Source of the DNA: a phage
Length of the DNA stretch: 64,000 nucleotides
Reading direction: 5' to 3' (one strand)
Sequence record: NC_101838.1
A model generated the notes under the pieces. The model was not told where the DNA came from. It saw only the letters and a list, made by a program, of their open reading frames with translations, and searched no databases. Made by a program: the position numbers and the translations under genes. Below are positions 26,082 through 36,112 of this stretch, piece by piece (position 1 is the first letter of the stretch; each line of letters starts with the position of its first letter).

Positions 26082-26501
26082 ATGAACATTAAATCTAATA
26101 ATCCGGCATATAGCTTTGATAACGCTTTTTGTCACGGTCCGGCGGCGAAAGGATTCGAAATCGATGGTAAACTAATTATTGTCAATGTTGACGGGGAAGA
26201 GGTTGCAGTATATCCGGTGGCAGACGTAAAAAGCCGTTTACAATGCCGCATGGATGTTACCGCCTATCAGCTTGATCCGGTTCGCATAGTTGCCCTGGTC
26301 CTGGAAGAAGAAATTAAAGCCATGCACCATAGCAACAGGTTTATTGGTGACGCTCAGGATAATATGAAGGTGTGCCGCCATAAAGTTAATGAAGTGCTTA
26401 AAGAGTACGGCTATAAAGATCTTATGATCAAACGTGATGAAAAATTCCGCTACCGTAACGACCTGGCAAATCGGATTTTTGAAATATACGAATCATTATA
26501 A
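26082..26501 (+). CDS. hypothetical protein
   Basis: AAGAGG RBS. Confidence 0.55.
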   Translation: MNIKSNNPAYSFDNAFCHGPAAKGFEIDGKLIIVNVDGEEVAVYPVADVKSRLQCRMDVTAYQLDPVRIVALVLEEEIKAMHHSNRFIGDAQDNMKVCRHKVNEVLKEYGYKDLMIKRDEKFRYRNDLANRIFEIYESL

Positions 26502-26519
26502 TTTTTTAACTGAATTATC

Positions 26520-26546
26520 AAGGGGCTTAGCCCCTTTCTTTTTGTC
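26520..26546 (+). terminator. rho-independent terminator closing the plus-strand block
   Basis: AAGGGGC-TTA-GCCCCTT followed by TCTTTTT. Confidence 0.65.
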
Positions 26547-27464
26547 TGCTCTTCCCCCTACCATAAACGGCCCTACCTGGAAAGTGGAATAATTGACGAG
26601 CCATCAATCCCACACACTGTACAAACATACATGTAAAATAGCTATTGCATAACCTTTCATTGTGTGGTAGCGGTGCTATTTTTTACCAGTTTTCCTTCCA
26701 AAATTGCACGTAATGCAGCTATTGCATAAATTTTAACCTGATGCATATCTTCAATATCTTGTCAACAAATAAAAATTCTTATAAGTCATACACTTATACC
26801 CCCACAAAAGCGTTCTCTACGTGAAAAATCGGGCATAACTATAGCCGCCAGATCTCAGAATTTACGTACGCTCGCCATTCTATAGCCTGCTAAGTATTTA
26901 TTCCAACCATAGAATAATGGAATAGTCAATACCTGAATAAAATAATTATTCGTTTAAACTGCATAACATAAATCAGCTCAGGTGTCAACATTTTTCGTAA
27001 ACAGTCTTAAATTGTCACTGTGAGTTATCATAAACAGAGAAATCTTTAGTCGTCTAATGTTTACTGTACGTTACTATACTGACTGGAATCATTAGATGAC
27101 TAATAGAAAGATAAGAAATAATTAACGATACAATTATTTTACCTGTAACAATAAGGCAACTATGCAAACGAATGGCATGGCGCGACGGAGTCGCGACATA
27201 ATATAAAAGCAGTAACCATCACCCCCGTGATAGTTTGTCTGCAAACTATTAATCAGATCATAGTTGCCTTGTATTTAGTTAATCATGACATAACAAGCAA
27301 GGCAACTATAGATCTTCTAATAGTTGCCCTGCTTTTATATTATGTCATGCTAATTATAATCAGTGCGATTATTGTCATGCAAACGAATGGCATGGCTTAT
27401 CATCTCTGTGTAAACAATCTATGCGTGAACAGTGAAACATGAAATAATAACAGTCGTTATTGTG

Positions 27465-27520
27465 TCAAGTATTCCGATTGTGTCACCATTGTGTCTAAAG
27501 TGTCATATTGTGTCAGACAA
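27465..27520. repeat. four closely spaced ATTGTGTCA-type direct repeats
   Basis: ttattgtgtcaag, attgtgtcacc, attgtgtctaa, tattgtgtcagac in tandem. Confidence 0.5.
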
Positions 27521-27969
27521 GTTTTTCTCCTCTTTGTCAAGTGCTGCATGAAAAATTTACAAACTGGTATGGTAGCATTTTTGCGGACCTGTTTACATTC
27601 AGGAGTGTATGTATAATCCTTGTTGTGTGGGCGTTTATACGTCTGGACGGTCAGAAGTCTGCAGGTTAATATCTAATCTATTGGCTGCTAACTATATCCC
27701 ACACAAATGATAAGAAATATAATTGTTATATGCGTAAACTGTAACTCATGTTATCAATCCCTGTATGGATCGCCAGTGGTGCGCATAATGGGTATTATGT
27801 TAAATTGCCCGTAATGATAAAGGTTCTCACAATGATAGGTATTCTCATTCACCCTCACAAAATAGATTGCAAATGTTGTGCCACTGTGTGAACGGCCTCA
27901 CCTATTAATTTGCCTCACTGCCTCGATATTTGAGAATTATTATAAGAATGAGAAGTATTCCCATTCCGT

Positions 27970-28330
27970 CCGCCTGGCAGCACTCCTGTAGGTCCTGCAA
28001 GGACTCTAGCTTTCAGCTAGACCCTTCGGGCCTCCCTGTAGGTCAGGTCAAAATCGGGGTAGAATTGGGCCTATTCAGATATTTCTGGCTGACTCTTCAG
28101 GTCTGTGTGGGAAAAGCCAACCTCTCCGGCGGGGCAGGGGGATATCTGCGGGAAAATTGCAGGTCAATTAAAAAATTTACGTGGTATATGAAGCGCTCTT
28201 CAGGTAAGGCATGTATTATGGGATGAAACCCTCTTCAGGCAATGATATTTGTGGGTGTGATATTTGCTGGAAAGCCAGATATGACGGGACTCCCGGCGGG
28301 GCAGGGGTGGTACAGACAGGGAAAATATGA
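27970..28330. repeat. degenerate repeat cluster in non-coding DNA
   Basis: Recurring CCTGTAGGTC (x2), CCGGCGGGGCAGGGG (x2) and CTCTTCAGG units. Confidence 0.45.
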
Positions 28331-29005
28331 AGGATGTGGTTGGGTAGATTGATCAGACAGGTAGAGTATGGAATATGTTACAAGTATGTTAAATATGGAG
28401 GTTGAATATCTGTAGGATTTGTGTGTAAAATCAAAGACTTAAGTGGTGTTGTGGTATTTTCTATAAATAATTCAAGTTTAATAGGCAATATTTGTCTCTA
28501 TCCGCTTTGTGTGGTAAACAGATTCAGATTAGATTGGTTTACAAGTGTATACATAATATACAAATTAAAGATACAAGAAACCCCCCCTCCCCCCTTCGGC
28601 TACCATTCACCTTTTCCTCTGACTGGTACTTAAACACTTATTCAGACTCTTCAGGTTATCACCCATATATCATATGGCAGTGACTGGTGTCCTCCGGCCC
28701 CTCTTTCGTCACCCGTCCGCTTCGCCATGCTAATGCCATAGCTAATGGTTCGGTTGTTCACCCTGTTCACTCAGGTGTATCTCTATACCCCTTCAAACCG
28801 AAGAGAACAGAAAACCCGAATTACTCGGTAAAAGAAAAGAGAAGAACTTAATTTTATCAGGATAGGCAAGAATGTCAAGGTATGACTGCTCACTAAACAA
28901 GCAAACAGTCATGTGTGGGAGGTAAGTGATTGTGGTGGTAGGAAATTTAGTTGAAAGATGTGTTATAGGTGCTTCCAGCACTTTAGCCGGGCAGCTAATT
29001 GTGTG

Positions 29006-33027: not shown

Positions 33028-33423
33028 TTACTGAAACAGTGCGGATAAATTACCTTCTGGTGGGAACTTATCTGCCAAAAACGGTGTTAGCACAGTAGCC
33101 TTCTGAAGATCTGGGGTCCACTCGTTGTTCAGAACATCCCAGTAGTACGCAATGTTGCTGTGTGGGTGCCGCATTACGAACTTTTTCCCTTCGTAGTCAT
33201 CTGAAACCTCTACAGAAGAAATAACAACAGAATCTTCAAGGGTTTCTTCATAGAAAGATCCACCTTCAAATTTCCAACGAGATGCAAGAGCTCCTGCCTT
33301 GAACGCTGCAGATAACGGACTGTCGGCAAGAACATACATTTCTTGCACTCTGTCGCTGCGATCTTTGCTTCTTACGTTGTATACAGTATCTGAGCTATAC
33401 TCAACACGGTATAGGCTTACCAT
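33028..33423 (-). CDS. hypothetical protein, paralog of 35230..35628
   Basis: Shared motif HPxS..YW..W.TWTP. Confidence 0.5.
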   Translation of the reverse strand: MVSLYRVEYSSDTVYNVRSKDRSDRVQEMYVLADSPLSAAFKAGALASRWKFEGGSFYEETLEDSVVISSVEVSDDYEGKKFVMRHPHSNIAYYWDVLNNEWTPDLQKATVLTPFLADKFPPEGNLSALFQ

Positions 33424-33782
33424 TACCGCACCTCCTCAATAACTTCCACATCTGAGCCCACCACAAATGCAAAAGGACAGGTTTCATGAAAGACATCCGG
33501 ATCGCCGCCAAGCTTGCTAACAATCTCTCCACCACTAATAAACACAAGCTCACCGATATTCATCAGATTGCTGAAATAGTACCCATAATGATTAAAGAAT
33601 GCAGCAGGGTCAGGTAGACTAGTAGCCTCAAGCACTACATCAGTTGAGGTTACTTTCTTATCATAACCTCTCGCCTTTTGAGATGCAAGATCTGCAGAAT
33701 CCTCAGGCGACCGGAGATGCACAGGAATTGTTTCACCAATAAAGCGTACTTTCATATTATCACCCAACAACCATAGCTTCAA
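33423..33782 (-). CDS. hypothetical protein
   Basis: ORF. Confidence 0.45.
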   Translation of the reverse strand: MKLWLLGDNMKVRFIGETIPVHLRSPEDSADLASQKARGYDKKVTSTDVVLEATSLPDPAAFFNHYGYYFSNLMNIGELVFISGGEIVSKLGGDPDVFHETCPFAFVVGSDVEVIEEVR

Positions 33783-34023
33783 AAGGGGTCATGAACGAAT
33801 AAACGGCATCATCATCTGCTTCAGGGAATGCTCCCAAAGACTTCATGTCTGAGCCCTTGACAAATACAAGGTTTTGATCAAAAGCTTCTTGAGGATCAAT
33901 CCGATACATATTTCGTAGAATATCGCCTACCTCCTCATCAAGAGGTGAGTATGCTGTGCACGTTTTTCCGATCAAGCTTTGAGAATCAGGGTATCCACCT
34001 GAAGTTTTAAAATAAACAATCAT
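33760..34023 (-). CDS. hypothetical protein
   Basis: ORF. Confidence 0.45.
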   Translation of the reverse strand: MIVYFKTSGGYPDSQSLIGKTCTAYSPLDEEVGDILRNMYRIDPQEAFDQNLVFVKGSDMKSLGAFPEADDDAVYSFMTPFEAMVVG

Positions 34024-34114: not shown

Positions 34115-34384
34115 TTATTCCTCTACAATCTCATACACATCCGGAGTTACAATCAACTCTTCTCCGTTACCCGGTGCAACAAACACCACCATGCCTTCAG
34201 GTGTGTGCTTTTTAGCCATCTCGATAACATCTTCTCGCAGAGCTGGCTCCATCAGATCAAAACCTTCACCCAGGGCATCACGAACCACCTTCATATAGTC
34301 AACTGGTTGTGCTTCGACAATCATACCTTCAACCAGTCCACAGTTTTTGTCTGCCAGCTCAGTTTTGAATAATTTAATTTTCAT
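34115..34384 (-). CDS. hypothetical acidic protein
   Basis: ORF. Confidence 0.5.
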   Translation of the reverse strand: MKIKLFKTELADKNCGLVEGMIVEAQPVDYMKVVRDALGEGFDLMEPALREDVIEMAKKHTPEGMVVFVAPGNGEELIVTPDVYEIVEE

Positions 34385-34521
34385 TTAGAGGTCTCCTCAA
34401 TTATTTGATATTAATAGCCGTAACCTAACACATTAACTACAACTGCGATTGCAAACATAATTTCAAAGCATGCAATCTCTACATTTGGGACTAATTTCTT
34501 GATCACACCCATTGTAGCACC

Positions 34522-34839
34522 TCATTCTCTAAAGTCAATCTTTACTTTGCCTTTCCCCTTACCTTTCTTTCCACCGCATTTAGCCAGTTGACGTGCTGCA
34601 ACATCTACCATACGGTCAGTTGCCTCGTAAGCATCACTGCCTTTAGCTTTGGCAATAACTTCTTTTCCAGAATTGTCAAAAATGAACGCCATAACTTCCT
34701 GGTGATCATTTTCAACTTTTACACTCACACGTGCATAGTTGGCAGAGGGATGCAAACGCTCCAGCTTAGACATTTTGTGGGAAATGAAAGACACCATACC
34801 TTCAGTGATTTCTACGTTGCCAGTGATTTCAATTTGCAT
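34522..34839 (-). CDS. hpf: ribosome hibernation promoting factor / RaiA (YfiA) family protein
   Basis: N-terminus MQIEITGNVEITEGM and overall pattern resemble bacterial HPF/RaiA; basic C-terminal tail. Confidence 0.6.
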   Translation of the reverse strand: MQIEITGNVEITEGMVSFISHKMSKLERLHPSANYARVSVKVENDHQEVMAFIFDNSGKEVIAKAKGSDAYEATDRMVDVAARQLAKCGGKKGKGKGKVKIDFRE

Positions 34840-34921
34840 AACGTGTTCCTTTTAAAGAAGAGGGAACCAAACCCTCTTTGAAAACAATGATACTAAATCT
34901 GAAGCGTTGTGTCAACAGTTT

Positions 34922-35229: not shown

Positions 35230-35628
35230 TCAGTTTAGCTTTTCTTCAACAACCCCATAGCTCGGGACAGAGTCAAGAGCTTTCTGGTTTAAAAGTGGTG
35301 TAGCAGAATCTGCAAACGGTGTCCAAGTTTTTGTTCTGGCATTCCAGTAATGCTTCACTCTGGAATCTGGATGCACTATAACAAAAACTTTTTCACTTGT
35401 CAACACATTAATTTCTTCTACACCCTTGCTGATAATTTCTCCGTCATAGCCACCAGTCTGGTATCCTTCGTACCAGGTTCTTGCATATGCATAGCCAGCC
35501 TGCCAGCATGCAGCCTCCTCCGAGGTGGAGACTACGTAGAAGTCTTTCTCAAATTCTGGGATACGCCCTTGCTTTACGCTCCAAGCTCCGCGAATTTTCA
35601 TTGTAACTTTGAACAGTTTATTTTTCAC
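35230..35628 (-). CDS. hypothetical protein, paralog of 33028..33423
   Basis: Shared motif VIVHPDSRVKHYWN..TKTWTP. Confidence 0.5.
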   Translation of the reverse strand: MKNKLFKVTMKIRGAWSVKQGRIPEFEKDFYVVSTSEEAACWQAGYAYARTWYEGYQTGGYDGEIISKGVEEINVLTSEKVFVIVHPDSRVKHYWNARTKTWTPFADSATPLLNQKALDSVPSYGVVEEKLN

Positions 35629-35640
35629 AACGGTTACCCA

Positions 35641-35895
35641 TCACAGCTCTACAATCTCTGCATCTGACCCTGCCCCAAAGGCATAATAGGATTCTTCCCC
35701 GAAATAATATTCCGGTGCACCAGCAGCGATCAGGTCTGATCCCAAGATAAACACCACGTTGTGGCCTACATAACTGTGATGTTGCCGCACAGGATCATCC
35801 CACGGCAACCCTTCAAAGTATACCGCAGGAACGACCTTTCCCTTCAGGAAGGATTGTCCCAAGTAGACGTTAGAATCAAGAATTTTAACCTTCAT
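35641..35895 (-). CDS. small protein, MKVK family member
   Basis: MKVKILDSNVYLGQ...DLIAAGA; paralogous to 35885..36112 and 39525..39758. Confidence 0.5.
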   Translation of the reverse strand: MKVKILDSNVYLGQSFLKGKVVPAVYFEGLPWDDPVRQHHSYVGHNVVFILGSDLIAAGAPEYYFGEESYYAFGAGSDAEIVEL

Positions 35896-36112
35896 TCTCG
35901 TCCTCCACTATCTCTACATCCTCACCAAGGGCAAAGTTGTAGGTCCACTGGCTGTCAAAGCAGTCCTGAGATGCACCAGCGGAAATAAGATCTGCACCTT
36001 TTATTTTTAAAAGGTCAGGATAATCTTCGTTAGGGATAGCGGTAAACACTTTCCCCACTAAGGGCTCCTGACCAATATAGAAGCTTGAATCTAAAACTTT
36101 AACTTTCATCAA
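35885..36112 (-). CDS. small protein, MKVK family member
   Basis: MMKVKVLDSSFYIGQ...DLISAGA. Confidence 0.5.
   Translation of the reverse strand: MMKVKVLDSSFYIGQEPLVGKVFTAIPNEDYPDLLKIKGADLISAGASQDCFDSQWTYNFALGEDVEIVEDENEG

What the first reader, a model, noticed from the sequence alone, without database searches (positions are those of the whole stretch)
34522..34839. Phage-encoded ribosome hibernation factor (HPF/RaiA) homolog
The 105-aa protein starts MQIEITGNVEITEGM and keeps the overall pattern of bacterial HPF/YfiA proteins, ending in a Lys/Gly-rich basic tail. A virulent phage carrying a ribosome-silencing factor suggests manipulation of host translation, or counteraction of a host response. 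It sits within the array of small uncharacterised genes.
Basis: partly seen in the sequence, partly recalled or inferred. Interest (0 to 1): 0.7.

Follow-up and report, generated by a model that had tools for sequence, protein, structure and literature searches.

The report
Known HPF homolog of rV5-like coliphages
The gene is a genuine but much-altered copy of the bacterial ribosome hibernation factor HPF, carried by rV5-like E. coli phages; it was annotated and published years ago, and its role in infection is still unknown.

Summary
Window 34522-34839 (minus strand) encodes a 105-aa protein that passes the curated thresholds of Pfam PF02482 and TIGR00741. It is 41-43% identical to E. coli HPF. 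[quoted passage not shown]

The window is a Vequintavirus (rV5-like) genome, 99.9% identical to phage AlexBoehm. The gene is already known. GenBank records name it sigma-54 modulation factor, hpf or RaiA. Mizuno et al. 2019 listed the rV5 copy and tested it: it did not co-purify with 70S/100S ribosomes washed in 500 mM NH4Cl, and 100S levels did not change.

New here:
- The gene is under strong purifying selection (dN/dS about 0.05 within the genus). It sits in the same slot in two uncultivated sister lineages (56-64% identity).
- Its GC content matches the phage, so the acquisition is old.
- Five ribosome-contact residues invariant in enterobacterial HPFs (R33, T53, H55, H62, K80) are replaced in all phage lineages. 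K23, K26, E44, R83 and K87 are kept, and five new basic residues plus a basic tail are gained.
- No RMF partner was found.

Most likely it is a remodelled, salt-labile binder of idle ribosomes that acts more like YfiA than like a 100S promoter. This is inferred, not shown.

The parts
34522..34839 (-). Complete CDS (105 codons + TGA) of the phage HPF homolog. It is the ortholog of rV5 ABI79209 and is identical to AlexBoehm bas56_0150 / QXV75701.
   Evidence: ORF listing; Pfam, NCBIfam and PHROG hits; 100% tblastn match to AlexBoehm and others; annotation tables.
34573..34839 (-). HPF/S30AE core domain, residues 1-89. Predicted elements are strand 2-7, helix 13-29, strands 33-43, 46-55 and 60-67, and helix 70-89.
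   Evidence: AlphaFold2 model has pLDDT about 91-96 over most of this range and pTM 0.73. Foldseek gives rmsd 0.9-1.1 A to V. cholerae HPF 4hei and to ribosome-bound E. coli HPF 6h4n_x. Between lineages core pN is 0.12-0.24 with synonymous sites saturated.
34525..34572 (-). C-terminal basic tail, residues 90-105 (GKKGKGKGKVKIDFRE). It is predicted disordered and makes the protein 10 residues longer than E. coli HPF.
   Evidence: pLDDT <50 for residues 90-105. Net charge of residues 88-105 is +5, against +2 for the HPF end and -4 for the YfiA tail. The tail sequence is conserved within the genus. It is not conserved between lineages, yet stays net +3 in both sister lineages.
34887..34915 (-). 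Sigma-70-type promoter-like site, TTGACA-17 nt-TATCAT (11 of 12 matches), directly upstream of the gene.
   Evidence: Consensus scan. An independent PhagePromoter annotation sits at the equivalent place in phage Gotham. The -35 TTGACA is kept in the P0004 lineage and the site is absent in the P0047 lineage. Strong sites across the window follow gene orientation. No function has been shown.
34858..34878 (-). 7-bp stem-loop (AAGAGGG-UUUGGUU-CCCUCUU) at or next to the predicted 5' end of the transcript. The AAGGAA ribosome-binding site follows at 34846-34851.
   Evidence: The RNA fold centroid keeps only this hairpin. The folding energy of the 90-nt stretch as a whole is no better than shuffled sequence (z = 0.87). 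The hairpin is present only in the window's lineage. A role as mRNA stabiliser or as terminator of the upstream gene is an inference.

Best explanation
The gene encodes a diverged, phage-adapted member of the short-HPF branch of the HPF/YfiA (Ribosomal_S30AE) family. An ancestor of the rV5-like phages captured it long ago from an enterobacterial-type host, and it has been kept under strong purifying selection since. That much is shown. The rest is inferred. Host RNA polymerase probably transcribes it early, from its own sigma-70-type promoter. The protein most likely still docks in the tRNA/mRNA channel of vacant 30S/70S ribosomes. For this it would use the retained N-terminal strand, the helix-1 lysines K22/K25 (plus the new R28) and the helix-2 residues R83/K87, which in HPF contact the decoding-centre nucleotides around C1402 and U1498. 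The contacts to the 30S head (m2G966, the uS9 C-terminus) and the helix-2 lysine K80 have been replaced. A basic, disordered tail has been added where YfiA carries its extension. The phage has no RMF. I therefore expect a salt-labile, YfiA-like binder that parks or protects idle 70S monomers, or competes with host HPF/RMF, rather than a promoter of 100S dimers. The benefit to the phage would be control or preservation of the host ribosome pool, for example in starved hosts.
For: Family membership: Pfam PF02482 48.3 bits (GA 23.7) and TIGR00741 45.9 bits (cutoff 40.9). E. coli HPF 2rql E=5e-12, aligned 1-89 to 1-89. [quoted passage not shown] The top 37 PDB fold matches are all HPF/YfiA/pY, with rmsd 1.1 A to ribosome-bound HPF 6h4n_x.

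HPF rather than RaiA: 41-43% against 25% identity, and 55.8 against 17.6 bits.

A functional gene: dN/dS has median 0.053 and maximum 0.16 over 38 pairs within the genus. Synonymous sites are saturated (pS 0.78-0.85) while core pN is 0.12-0.24 between three lineages that keep the gene in the same syntenic slot. It is present in 118 of 120 matching phage records.

Old acquisition: GC is 41.8% against 43% for the window. An exhaustive search found nothing between about 65% and about 45% identity.

Retained and lost contacts: the published contact list (bioRxiv 10.1101/2025.10.07.680626; S. aureus mutagenesis PMC4889938) was mapped on alignment A3. K23, K26, E44, R83 and K87 are kept in all phage lineages. 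R33, T53, H55, H62 and K80 are replaced in all. R28, R37, K59, K64 and K66 are newly invariant. Core net charge is -2 to +4 against -3 for E. coli HPF, so basic, RNA-binding character is not lost.

Promoter. No RMF in the window or in any of 50,697 phage records.

Published data agree with weak binding and no dimer promotion. The protein was made in E. coli, cultures still grew to OD 1, 100S did not change, and the protein was absent after a 500 mM NH4Cl wash. The authors themselves list salt stripping as a possible cause.
Against: The only experiment on this protein found no ribosome association at all (PMC6375957). About half of the invariant ribosome-contact residues of enterobacterial HPF are replaced, including K80. 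The structural preprint counts K80 among the strictly conserved basic residues, and in S. aureus HPF it is needed for dimerisation. The score is far below NCBI's equivalog cutoff for HPF (55.8 against 125). Expression timing rests on a consensus promoter match only, and that promoter is missing in one sister lineage. No structural model with the ribosome could be made here, and the contact mapping relies on sequence alignment.
Confidence: 0.5

Rival explanations
1. Canonical hibernation. The phage protein works just like host HPF: together with host RMF it converts ribosomes to inactive 100S dimers, silencing translation late in infection or in starved cells.
For: It is an HPF-branch homolog with the HPF fold. 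R83, K87, K23 and K26 are retained.
Against: Expressing the rV5 protein did not change the 100S fraction, and the protein was not found in 100S. K80 is replaced in all phage lineages; its equivalent is needed for dimerisation in S. aureus HPF. The head contacts T53/H55 are also replaced in all phage lineages. The added 10-residue tail occupies the position of the YfiA extension, which by established knowledge (Polikanov et al. 2012) blocks RMF. No phage RMF exists. Silencing ribosomes from an early promoter would also hurt the phage.
Confidence: 0.1
2. Anti-hibernation competitor, as suggested by Mizuno et al. The phage protein displaces or pre-empts host HPF/RMF so that ribosomes are not locked into 100S dimers and stay available for phage mRNAs.
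For: This is the hypothesis stated in PMC6375957. The loss of K80, the YfiA-like tail extension and the lack of RMF fit a non-dimerising binder. This rival overlaps with the best explanation; it differs only in the benefit assumed.
Against: 100S did not fall on expression, although very little 100S was present in those exponential-phase cells. A weak binder is unlikely to displace host factors already bound in stationary-phase cells. The protein must itself be translated first.
Confidence: 0.2
3. Neofunctionalisation. The HPF fold has been re-used to bind something other than the ribosomal decoding channel, such as another RNA, a phage or host protein, or a defence component.
For: No ribosome co-purification was found. 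Five invariant contact residues are replaced and five new invariant basic residues gained, all fixed across three lineages under purifying selection. The phage proteins form their own PHROG of unknown function (phrog_12469) and match the S30EA PHROG only weakly. The gene lies among early genes of unknown function of the host-takeover type.
Against: The best-conserved parts shared with bacterial HPF are ribosome-contacting elements: the N-terminal strand (10 of the first 13 residues identical), K22/K25, and R83/K87, which touch modified nucleotides of the decoding centre. The high-salt wash makes the negative experiment uninformative.
Confidence: 0.18
4. Decaying or passenger gene with no function for the phage.
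For: None beyond the negative ribosome-binding experiment.
Against: dN/dS is about 0.05 within the genus, the tail included. The gene is retained in a syntenic slot in three lineages whose synonymous sites are saturated. It is intact in 118 records. Its composition is fully ameliorated.
Confidence: 0.02

Closest known systems
Short HPF (YhbH) of E. coli and other Enterobacterales (PDB 2rql, 6h4n chain x; NCBIfam PRK10470)
   Same: It is the best sequence relative: 41-43% identity to E. coli HPF and 37-45% to the enterobacterial HPFs compared. The two align collinearly over residues 1-89. The fold is the same (rmsd 1.1 A). The N-terminal strand is almost identical (MQ(L/I)xITGN-VEITE). K23, K26, E44, R83 and K87 are conserved.
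   Different: The score is below the equivalog cutoff (55.8 against 125 bits). R33, T53, H55, H62 and K80, invariant in 38 enterobacterial HPFs, are replaced. R28, R37, K59, K64 and K66 are gained. One residue is deleted after G7-N8 and one inserted in the beta3-beta4 loop. The tail is 10 residues longer and Lys/Gly-rich instead of ending HKDKLKQH. The gene is carried by a virulent phage, has a phage-like GC content, and has no RMF partner in the phage. The published assay showed no effect on 100S.
YfiA / RaiA / protein Y of E. coli (PDB 1n3g, 4v8i; NCBIfam PRK10324)
   Same: The fold and family are the same. Both have a C-terminal extension beyond the end of HPF. By established knowledge, in YfiA this extension clashes with RMF and gives 70S monomers instead of 100S. 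The basic tail residues R95/R96 of YfiA contact 16S rRNA and uS7. RefSeq names the phage protein RaiA.
   Different: Identity is only 25% and the RaiA model gives 17.6 bits against a cutoff of 158. The tails share no sequence: net charge is +5 for the phage against -4 for YfiA, whose tail ends in an acidic run. The resemblance is a functional analogy proposed here, not membership.
HPF-fold proteins of other large phages (Cronobacter phage GAP32, Escherichia phage PBECO4, Xanthomonas phage XaC1)
   Same: These are also phage-encoded S30AE/HPF-fold proteins of about 110 aa in large myoviruses.
   Different: Identity to the rV5-type protein is only 17-22% in structure-based alignment. They belong to a different PHROG (phrog_8990 against phrog_12469). 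Mizuno et al. place GAP32 elsewhere in the HPF tree. They are independent acquisitions.
Virus-encoded ribosomal proteins bS21 and bL12 (Mizuno et al. 2019)
   Same: They belong to the same class of 'translation auxiliary genes' that phages took from hosts and keep under purifying selection.
   Different: In the same experiments, bS21 and bL12 were shown to enter E. coli 70S ribosomes. The rV5 HPF homolog was not.

Membership tests
HPF/YfiA family (Pfam PF02482 Ribosomal_S30AE; TIGR00741) | Profile-HMM score above the curated family threshold | tested here: met
   PF02482 gives 48.3 bits against GA 23.7, covering residues 3-88 of the protein and profile positions 1-83 of 88. TIGR00741 gives 45.9 bits against 40.9.
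HPF/YfiA family (Pfam PF02482 Ribosomal_S30AE; TIGR00741) | [quoted passage not shown] | tested here: met
   The AF2 model has E2-7 H13-29 E33-43 E46-55 E60-67 H70-89, mean pLDDT 83 and pTM 0.73. In the Foldseek PDB search the top 37 hits are all HPF/YfiA/pY, with TM-scores normalised to the target up to 0.94. This is a prediction, not a solved structure.
HPF/YfiA family (Pfam PF02482 Ribosomal_S30AE; TIGR00741) | Conserved basic residues on both helices that bind 16S rRNA (E. coli K23/K26 on helix 1, K80/R83/K87 on helix 2) | tested here: inconclusive
   K22, K25, R83 and K87 are present in all three phage lineages. K80 is replaced by V, T or I. In S. aureus HPF, loss of binding needed mutation of all four equivalent residues; the helix-2 pair alone abolished dimerisation.
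HPF/YfiA family (Pfam PF02482 Ribosomal_S30AE; TIGR00741) | Binds the 30S subunit in the A/P-site tRNA-mRNA channel of vacant ribosomes | not testable with these tools
   The only published test found the rV5 protein in the crude extract but not in 70S/100S after a 500 mM NH4Cl sucrose cushion (PMC6375957). This is inconclusive because such washes can strip the factor, as the authors note.
Enterobacterial short HPF, equivalog (NCBIfam PRK10470 / NF007780) | Score above the equivalog cutoff (125 bits), meaning the same function can be assumed | tested here: not met
   The score is 55.8 bits. Of the contact residues invariant in 38 enterobacterial HPFs, five (R33, T53, H55, H62, K80) are replaced in every phage lineage and E60 is not consistently kept.
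Enterobacterial short HPF, equivalog (NCBIfam PRK10470 / NF007780) | Promotes or stabilises RMF-dependent 100S ribosome dimers | not tested
   Not tested here. Mizuno et al. saw no discernible effect on 100S in late-exponential-phase cells (harvested at OD600 of 1) expressing the protein. No RMF gene was found in the window or in any phage record.
RaiA/YfiA equivalog (NCBIfam PRK10324 / NF007654) | Score above the equivalog cutoff (158 bits), with the YfiA-type C-terminal extension | tested here: not met
   The score is 17.6 bits and identity is 25%. A tail extension exists but its sequence is unrelated and its charge is opposite. The RefSeq name 'RaiA' is therefore a family-level label only.

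The most novel reading that the evidence does not exclude
The rV5-type protein is not a hibernation factor in the host's sense. On this reading it is a retargeted ribosome ligand made early in infection. Its rebuilt head-facing surface and basic tail would let it occupy the decoding channel and the 16S 3'-end region of idle ribosomes. There it would either keep them out of RMF/HPF 100S dimers or shield them from host nucleases or ribosome-directed abortive-infection toxins. That would make it a phage counter-measure built from the host's own hibernation factor.
Probability: 0.2. Interest if true: 0.6.

Novelty: already known. Interest (0 to 1): 0.27.

Why it matters
Phage copies of translation factors show which parts of host physiology a virus needs to control. 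This one is kept in essentially every rV5-like coliphage, a group widely used for O157 biocontrol and in model collections such as BASEL. It evolves under very strong constraint, yet its role is unknown and the single published assay was negative. The residue map made here gives a concrete reason for that negative result. The decoding-centre contacts are kept, the 30S-head contacts and K80 are lost, and a conserved basic tail is gained. The map also points to cheap follow-ups: low-salt binding, competition with RMF/HPF/YfiA, and a deletion phage on starved hosts. As a discovery it is not new.

Tried and rejected
(1) A second 'sigma 54 modulation factor' is annotated two genes downstream (89-aa ORF 34115..34384 in phages naam and APECc02). 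It has no Pfam hit, no similarity to the HPF homolog (BLASTP E=42) and its own PHROG of unknown function. It is an annotation error, not a second HPF.

(2) RMF partner: tblastn of E. coli RMF against the window gave best E=2.2, and against 50,697 phage records gave no match.

(3) The Rfam gathering search of the whole window and the tRNA scan found nothing.

(4) P0122, a 1160-aa protein with 8 'HPF-like' stretches in the exhaustive search, is a PPC-domain repeat protein. The match is spurious.

(5) IMG/VR scan for further divergent lineages: only two loci, both of the ordinary rV5 type.

(6) Literature: no transcriptomic or deletion study of this gene was found in the held library. One search was swamped by animal-hibernation papers. 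Polikanov et al. 2012 is not held, so the statement that the YfiA tail blocks RMF rests on established knowledge.

(7) The word-indexed homolog search with the single sequence saw only the phage family. An alignment seeded with E. coli HPF was needed to reach cellular HPFs.

(8) My first alignment (A1) clipped the initiator Met by trimming the wrong end of a minus-strand reference. I redid it as A2/A3.

(9) The idea that the upstream hairpin is a terminator was not supported by the scan: no T-run follows it. The folding energy of the stretch is no better than shuffled sequence.

Full report
OBSERVATION. The coordinates 34522..34839 hold an ATG-initiated ORF of 105 codons plus stop, on the minus strand. 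The finding did not state the strand. The plus-strand translation of the same bases is a stop-free reverse-frame read with no family match. An AAGGAA ribosome-binding site lies 7 nt upstream.

WHAT IT IS. Profile searches place the protein in the HPF/YfiA family, above curated thresholds.
- Pfam PF02482 (Ribosomal_S30AE): E=1.8e-12, 48.3 bits against a gathering score of 23.7.
- TIGR00741: 45.9 bits against a cutoff of 40.9.

The best solved relative is E. coli HPF (2rql/6h4n, E about 5e-12), aligned residue 1-89 to 1-89. The protein belongs to the HPF branch, not the RaiA branch. Identity is 41-43% to E. coli HPF against 25% to YfiA. The NCBIfam HPF model gives 55.8 bits and the RaiA model 17.6, both below their equivalog cutoffs.

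An AlphaFold2 model was built on an alignment of 41 sequences (mean pLDDT 83, pTM 0.73). It shows strand 2-7, helix 13-29, strands 33-43, 46-55 and 60-67, and helix 70-89. Residues 90-105 are disordered. Against the PDB, the 37 best matches are all HPF/YfiA/pY. The rmsd is 0.9-1.1 A to V. cholerae HPF and to HPF bound in the E. coli 100S ribosome.

WHERE IT COMES FROM, AND PRIOR KNOWLEDGE. The window is a Vequintavirus (rV5-like coliphage). The 4 kb around the gene is 99.9% identical to Escherichia phage AlexBoehm (BASEL Bas56), and 120 phage records match it. The protein is 95-100% identical in 116 of the 118 matching records. These records call it 'sigma 54 modulation factor', 'ribosome hibernation factor', 'hpf' or 'RaiA'. 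A few call it, wrongly, 'ATP-dependent protease La'.

Mizuno et al. 2019 (PMC6375957) listed rV5 ABI79209 as a viral HPF and tested it.
- The protein was expressed from pBAD24 in E. coli NM522 and detected in crude extract.
- It was not detected in 70S or 100S ribosomes purified through a 500 mM NH4Cl cushion.
- The 100S fraction did not change.
- The authors named growth phase, true loss of binding, or salt stripping as possible reasons.

Mathieu et al. 2020 repeat the hpf assignment for five more rV5 phages. I found no later functional work in the held library.

NEW ANALYSIS 1: THE GENE IS OLD, FIXED AND CONSTRAINED.
- Distribution. Among 50,697 phage records the rV5-type protein occurs only in the genus Vequintavirus. 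The HPF-fold proteins of GAP32, PBECO4 and XaC1 are only distantly related and are separate acquisitions.
- Sister lineages. Two divergent orthologs, P0004 (64% identity, 103 aa) and P0047 (56%, 104 aa), lie in the same syntenic slot of uncultivated rV5-like contigs of up to 137 kb.
- Selection between lineages. Synonymous sites are saturated (pS 0.78-0.85). The core domain has pN 0.12-0.24 and the tail 0.45-0.58.
- Selection within the genus. Over ten genomes, dN/dS has a median of 0.053 (38 pairs, maximum 0.16), and the KGKGKGK tail is conserved.
- Isolation and composition. An exhaustive HMMER search of 1.84 billion representatives found nothing between the phage family's own about 65% and the about 45% of cellular HPFs. 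The closest cellular proteins are enterobacterial short HPFs at 37-45% identity. Gene GC (41.8%, GC3 36.8%) matches the phage (43%).

This argues against the 'relatively recent' transfer suggested in 2019. It supports a single old capture followed by adaptation.

NEW ANALYSIS 2: THE RIBOSOME-CONTACT SURFACE IS PARTLY REBUILT. A 2025 structural preprint lists the essential HPF contacts in Gram-negative ribosomes.
- K26 and Q29 contact the phosphates next to m3U1498.
- T53 and H62 contact m2G966.
- H55 and E60 contact the uS9 C-terminus.
- The 'strictly conserved' helix-2 residues are K80, R83 (to m4C1402), K87, K89 and K91.

In S. aureus HPF, the equivalents of K23/K26/K80/R83 had to be mutated together to lose binding. 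The helix-2 pair alone abolished dimerisation.

I mapped these residues on 38 enterobacterial HPFs and the three phage lineages.
- Kept in all phage lineages: K23, K26, E44, R83, K87.
- Replaced in all phage lineages: R33 (to S/T), T53 (F/R), H55 (F), H62 (I/M/L, comparable to V62 of the P. aeruginosa HPF) and K80 (V/T/I).
- E60 is not consistently kept.
- Newly invariant basic residues: R28, R37, K59, K64, K66.
- Core net charge is -2 to +4 against -3 for E. coli HPF.
- The tail is net +5, +3 and +3 in the three lineages, although its sequence is not conserved between them.

The N-terminal strand is nearly identical to that of bacterial HPF. So the decoding-centre-facing elements persist, while the contacts to the mobile 30S head and the dimerisation-linked lysine are gone.

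CONTEXT. The gene lies in a roughly 10-kb run of small minus-strand genes of unknown function, downstream of the nucleotide-metabolism genes.
- A TTGACA-17-TATCAT site (11/12) sits at 34915..34887. A 7-bp hairpin follows at 34878..34858 and then the ribosome-binding site.
- PhagePromoter marks the same place in phage Gotham.
- Strong sigma-70-like sites across the window follow gene orientation, which fits early or middle transcription by host polymerase.
- The -35 element is kept in the P0004 lineage. The promoter is absent in the P0047 lineage, and the hairpin is specific to the window's lineage.
- No RMF homolog exists in the window or in any phage record.
- The nearby 89-aa ORF that some records also call 'sigma 54 modulation factor' has no relation to HPF.

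MECHANISM. Shown: family membership, fold (predicted), strong constraint and an old origin. Inferred, in three steps:
- Early expression.
- Docking of the core in the tRNA/mRNA channel of vacant ribosomes through the retained helix and N-terminal contacts.
- Weakened or altered head contacts, plus a basic tail in the position of the YfiA extension. These would make a salt-labile, non-dimerising, YfiA-like ligand that parks or protects idle 70S ribosomes, or competes with host HPF/RMF.

This reading fits three published facts: the protein is not toxic (cultures grew to OD 1), it leaves 100S unchanged, and it is lost in high salt. I give it about 0.5. The rivals are an anti-hibernation competitor (0.2, overlapping with the best explanation), neofunctionalisation away from the ribosome (0.18), canonical 100S promotion (0.1) and a functionless passenger (0.02, contradicted by the selection data).

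VERDICT. The feature is already known, both annotated and published, so interest is low to moderate. What remains open is the function. The residue map and the conserved tail offer specific, testable reasons for the earlier negative assay.

Noticed in passing
window 26500-29000: About 2.5 kb has no annotated gene in AlexBoehm and no convincing ORF. It lies where the plus-strand small-gene array (about 13.8-26.5 kb) and the minus-strand array (about 29-58 kb) converge. It holds dispersed repeats: the motif ATAGTTGCC(C/T)TG in both orientations at 27146-27337, an exact 20-mer at 27162 and 27377, and CCGGCGGGGCAGGGG at 28126 and 28293. There is no tRNA and no Rfam hit. It may be an origin or a non-coding RNA region.
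   Followed up: partly
window 34115-34384 (minus strand): This 89-aa ORF is named 'sigma 54 modulation factor' in phages naam, APECc02 and records derived from them. It has no Pfam hit and no similarity to the HPF homolog, so the name is a propagated annotation error. Conversely, the true HPF gene is named 'ATP-dependent protease La' in the bov and NWU records.
   Followed up: yes
window 33028-33423 and 35230-35628; 35641-35895, 35885-36112 and 33760-34023 (all minus strand): The small-gene array around the HPF gene contains paralog families. Two proteins of 131 and 132 aa belong to phrog_7379 and flank the HPF region. Two adjacent proteins of 84 and 75 aa belong to phrog_5009, and a third of 87 aa matches that family weakly. 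All are of unknown function.
   Followed up: partly
L003-L008 (Logan assemblies ERR6997038, ERR4623478, SRR25571739, DRR842907, SRR22580011, SRR23924973): Two uncultivated lineages of rV5-like phages (contigs up to about 126-137 kb) have the same gene order around the HPF gene. Their neighbouring proteins are only about 30-90% identical to the window's, and no isolate in the phage collection matches them closely. The best named-phage identity for their HPF is about 65%.
   Followed up: partly
window 34411-34512 (minus strand): A 33-aa hydrophobic ORF (phrog_15151) lies between the HPF gene and the next gene. It is preceded by a promoter-like site (34538..34511) that overlaps the 3' end of the HPF gene. 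This ORF is missing in the P0004 and P0047 lineages, where the intergenic gap is only about 84 nt.
   Followed up: no
L012 (phage V18) and L013 (phage A6-1), codon 9 of the HPF gene: These two Vequintavirus genomes carry an extra Asn (GNNVE instead of GNVE). This restores the spacing seen in bacterial HPFs. It is probably a secondary codon duplication, since the other genus members and both sister lineages lack it.
   Followed up: no
phage records MG0656xx ('Campylobacter phage' A142, C15, A12a and others): Eighteen records labelled Campylobacter phage (the one fetched, MG065662 A142, is marked UNVERIFIED) are rV5-like Vequintavirus genomes with an HPF gene 97-99% identical to the coliphage copies. 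The host label is doubtful.
   Followed up: no
whole window, both strands: Strong sigma-70-like promoter matches (at least 10 of 12) follow gene orientation. There are 28 on the plus strand, concentrated at 4-20 kb where genes are on the plus strand. There are 27 on the minus strand, concentrated at 28-64 kb where genes are on the minus strand. This suggests many host-polymerase promoters spread through both small-gene arrays.
   Followed up: partly
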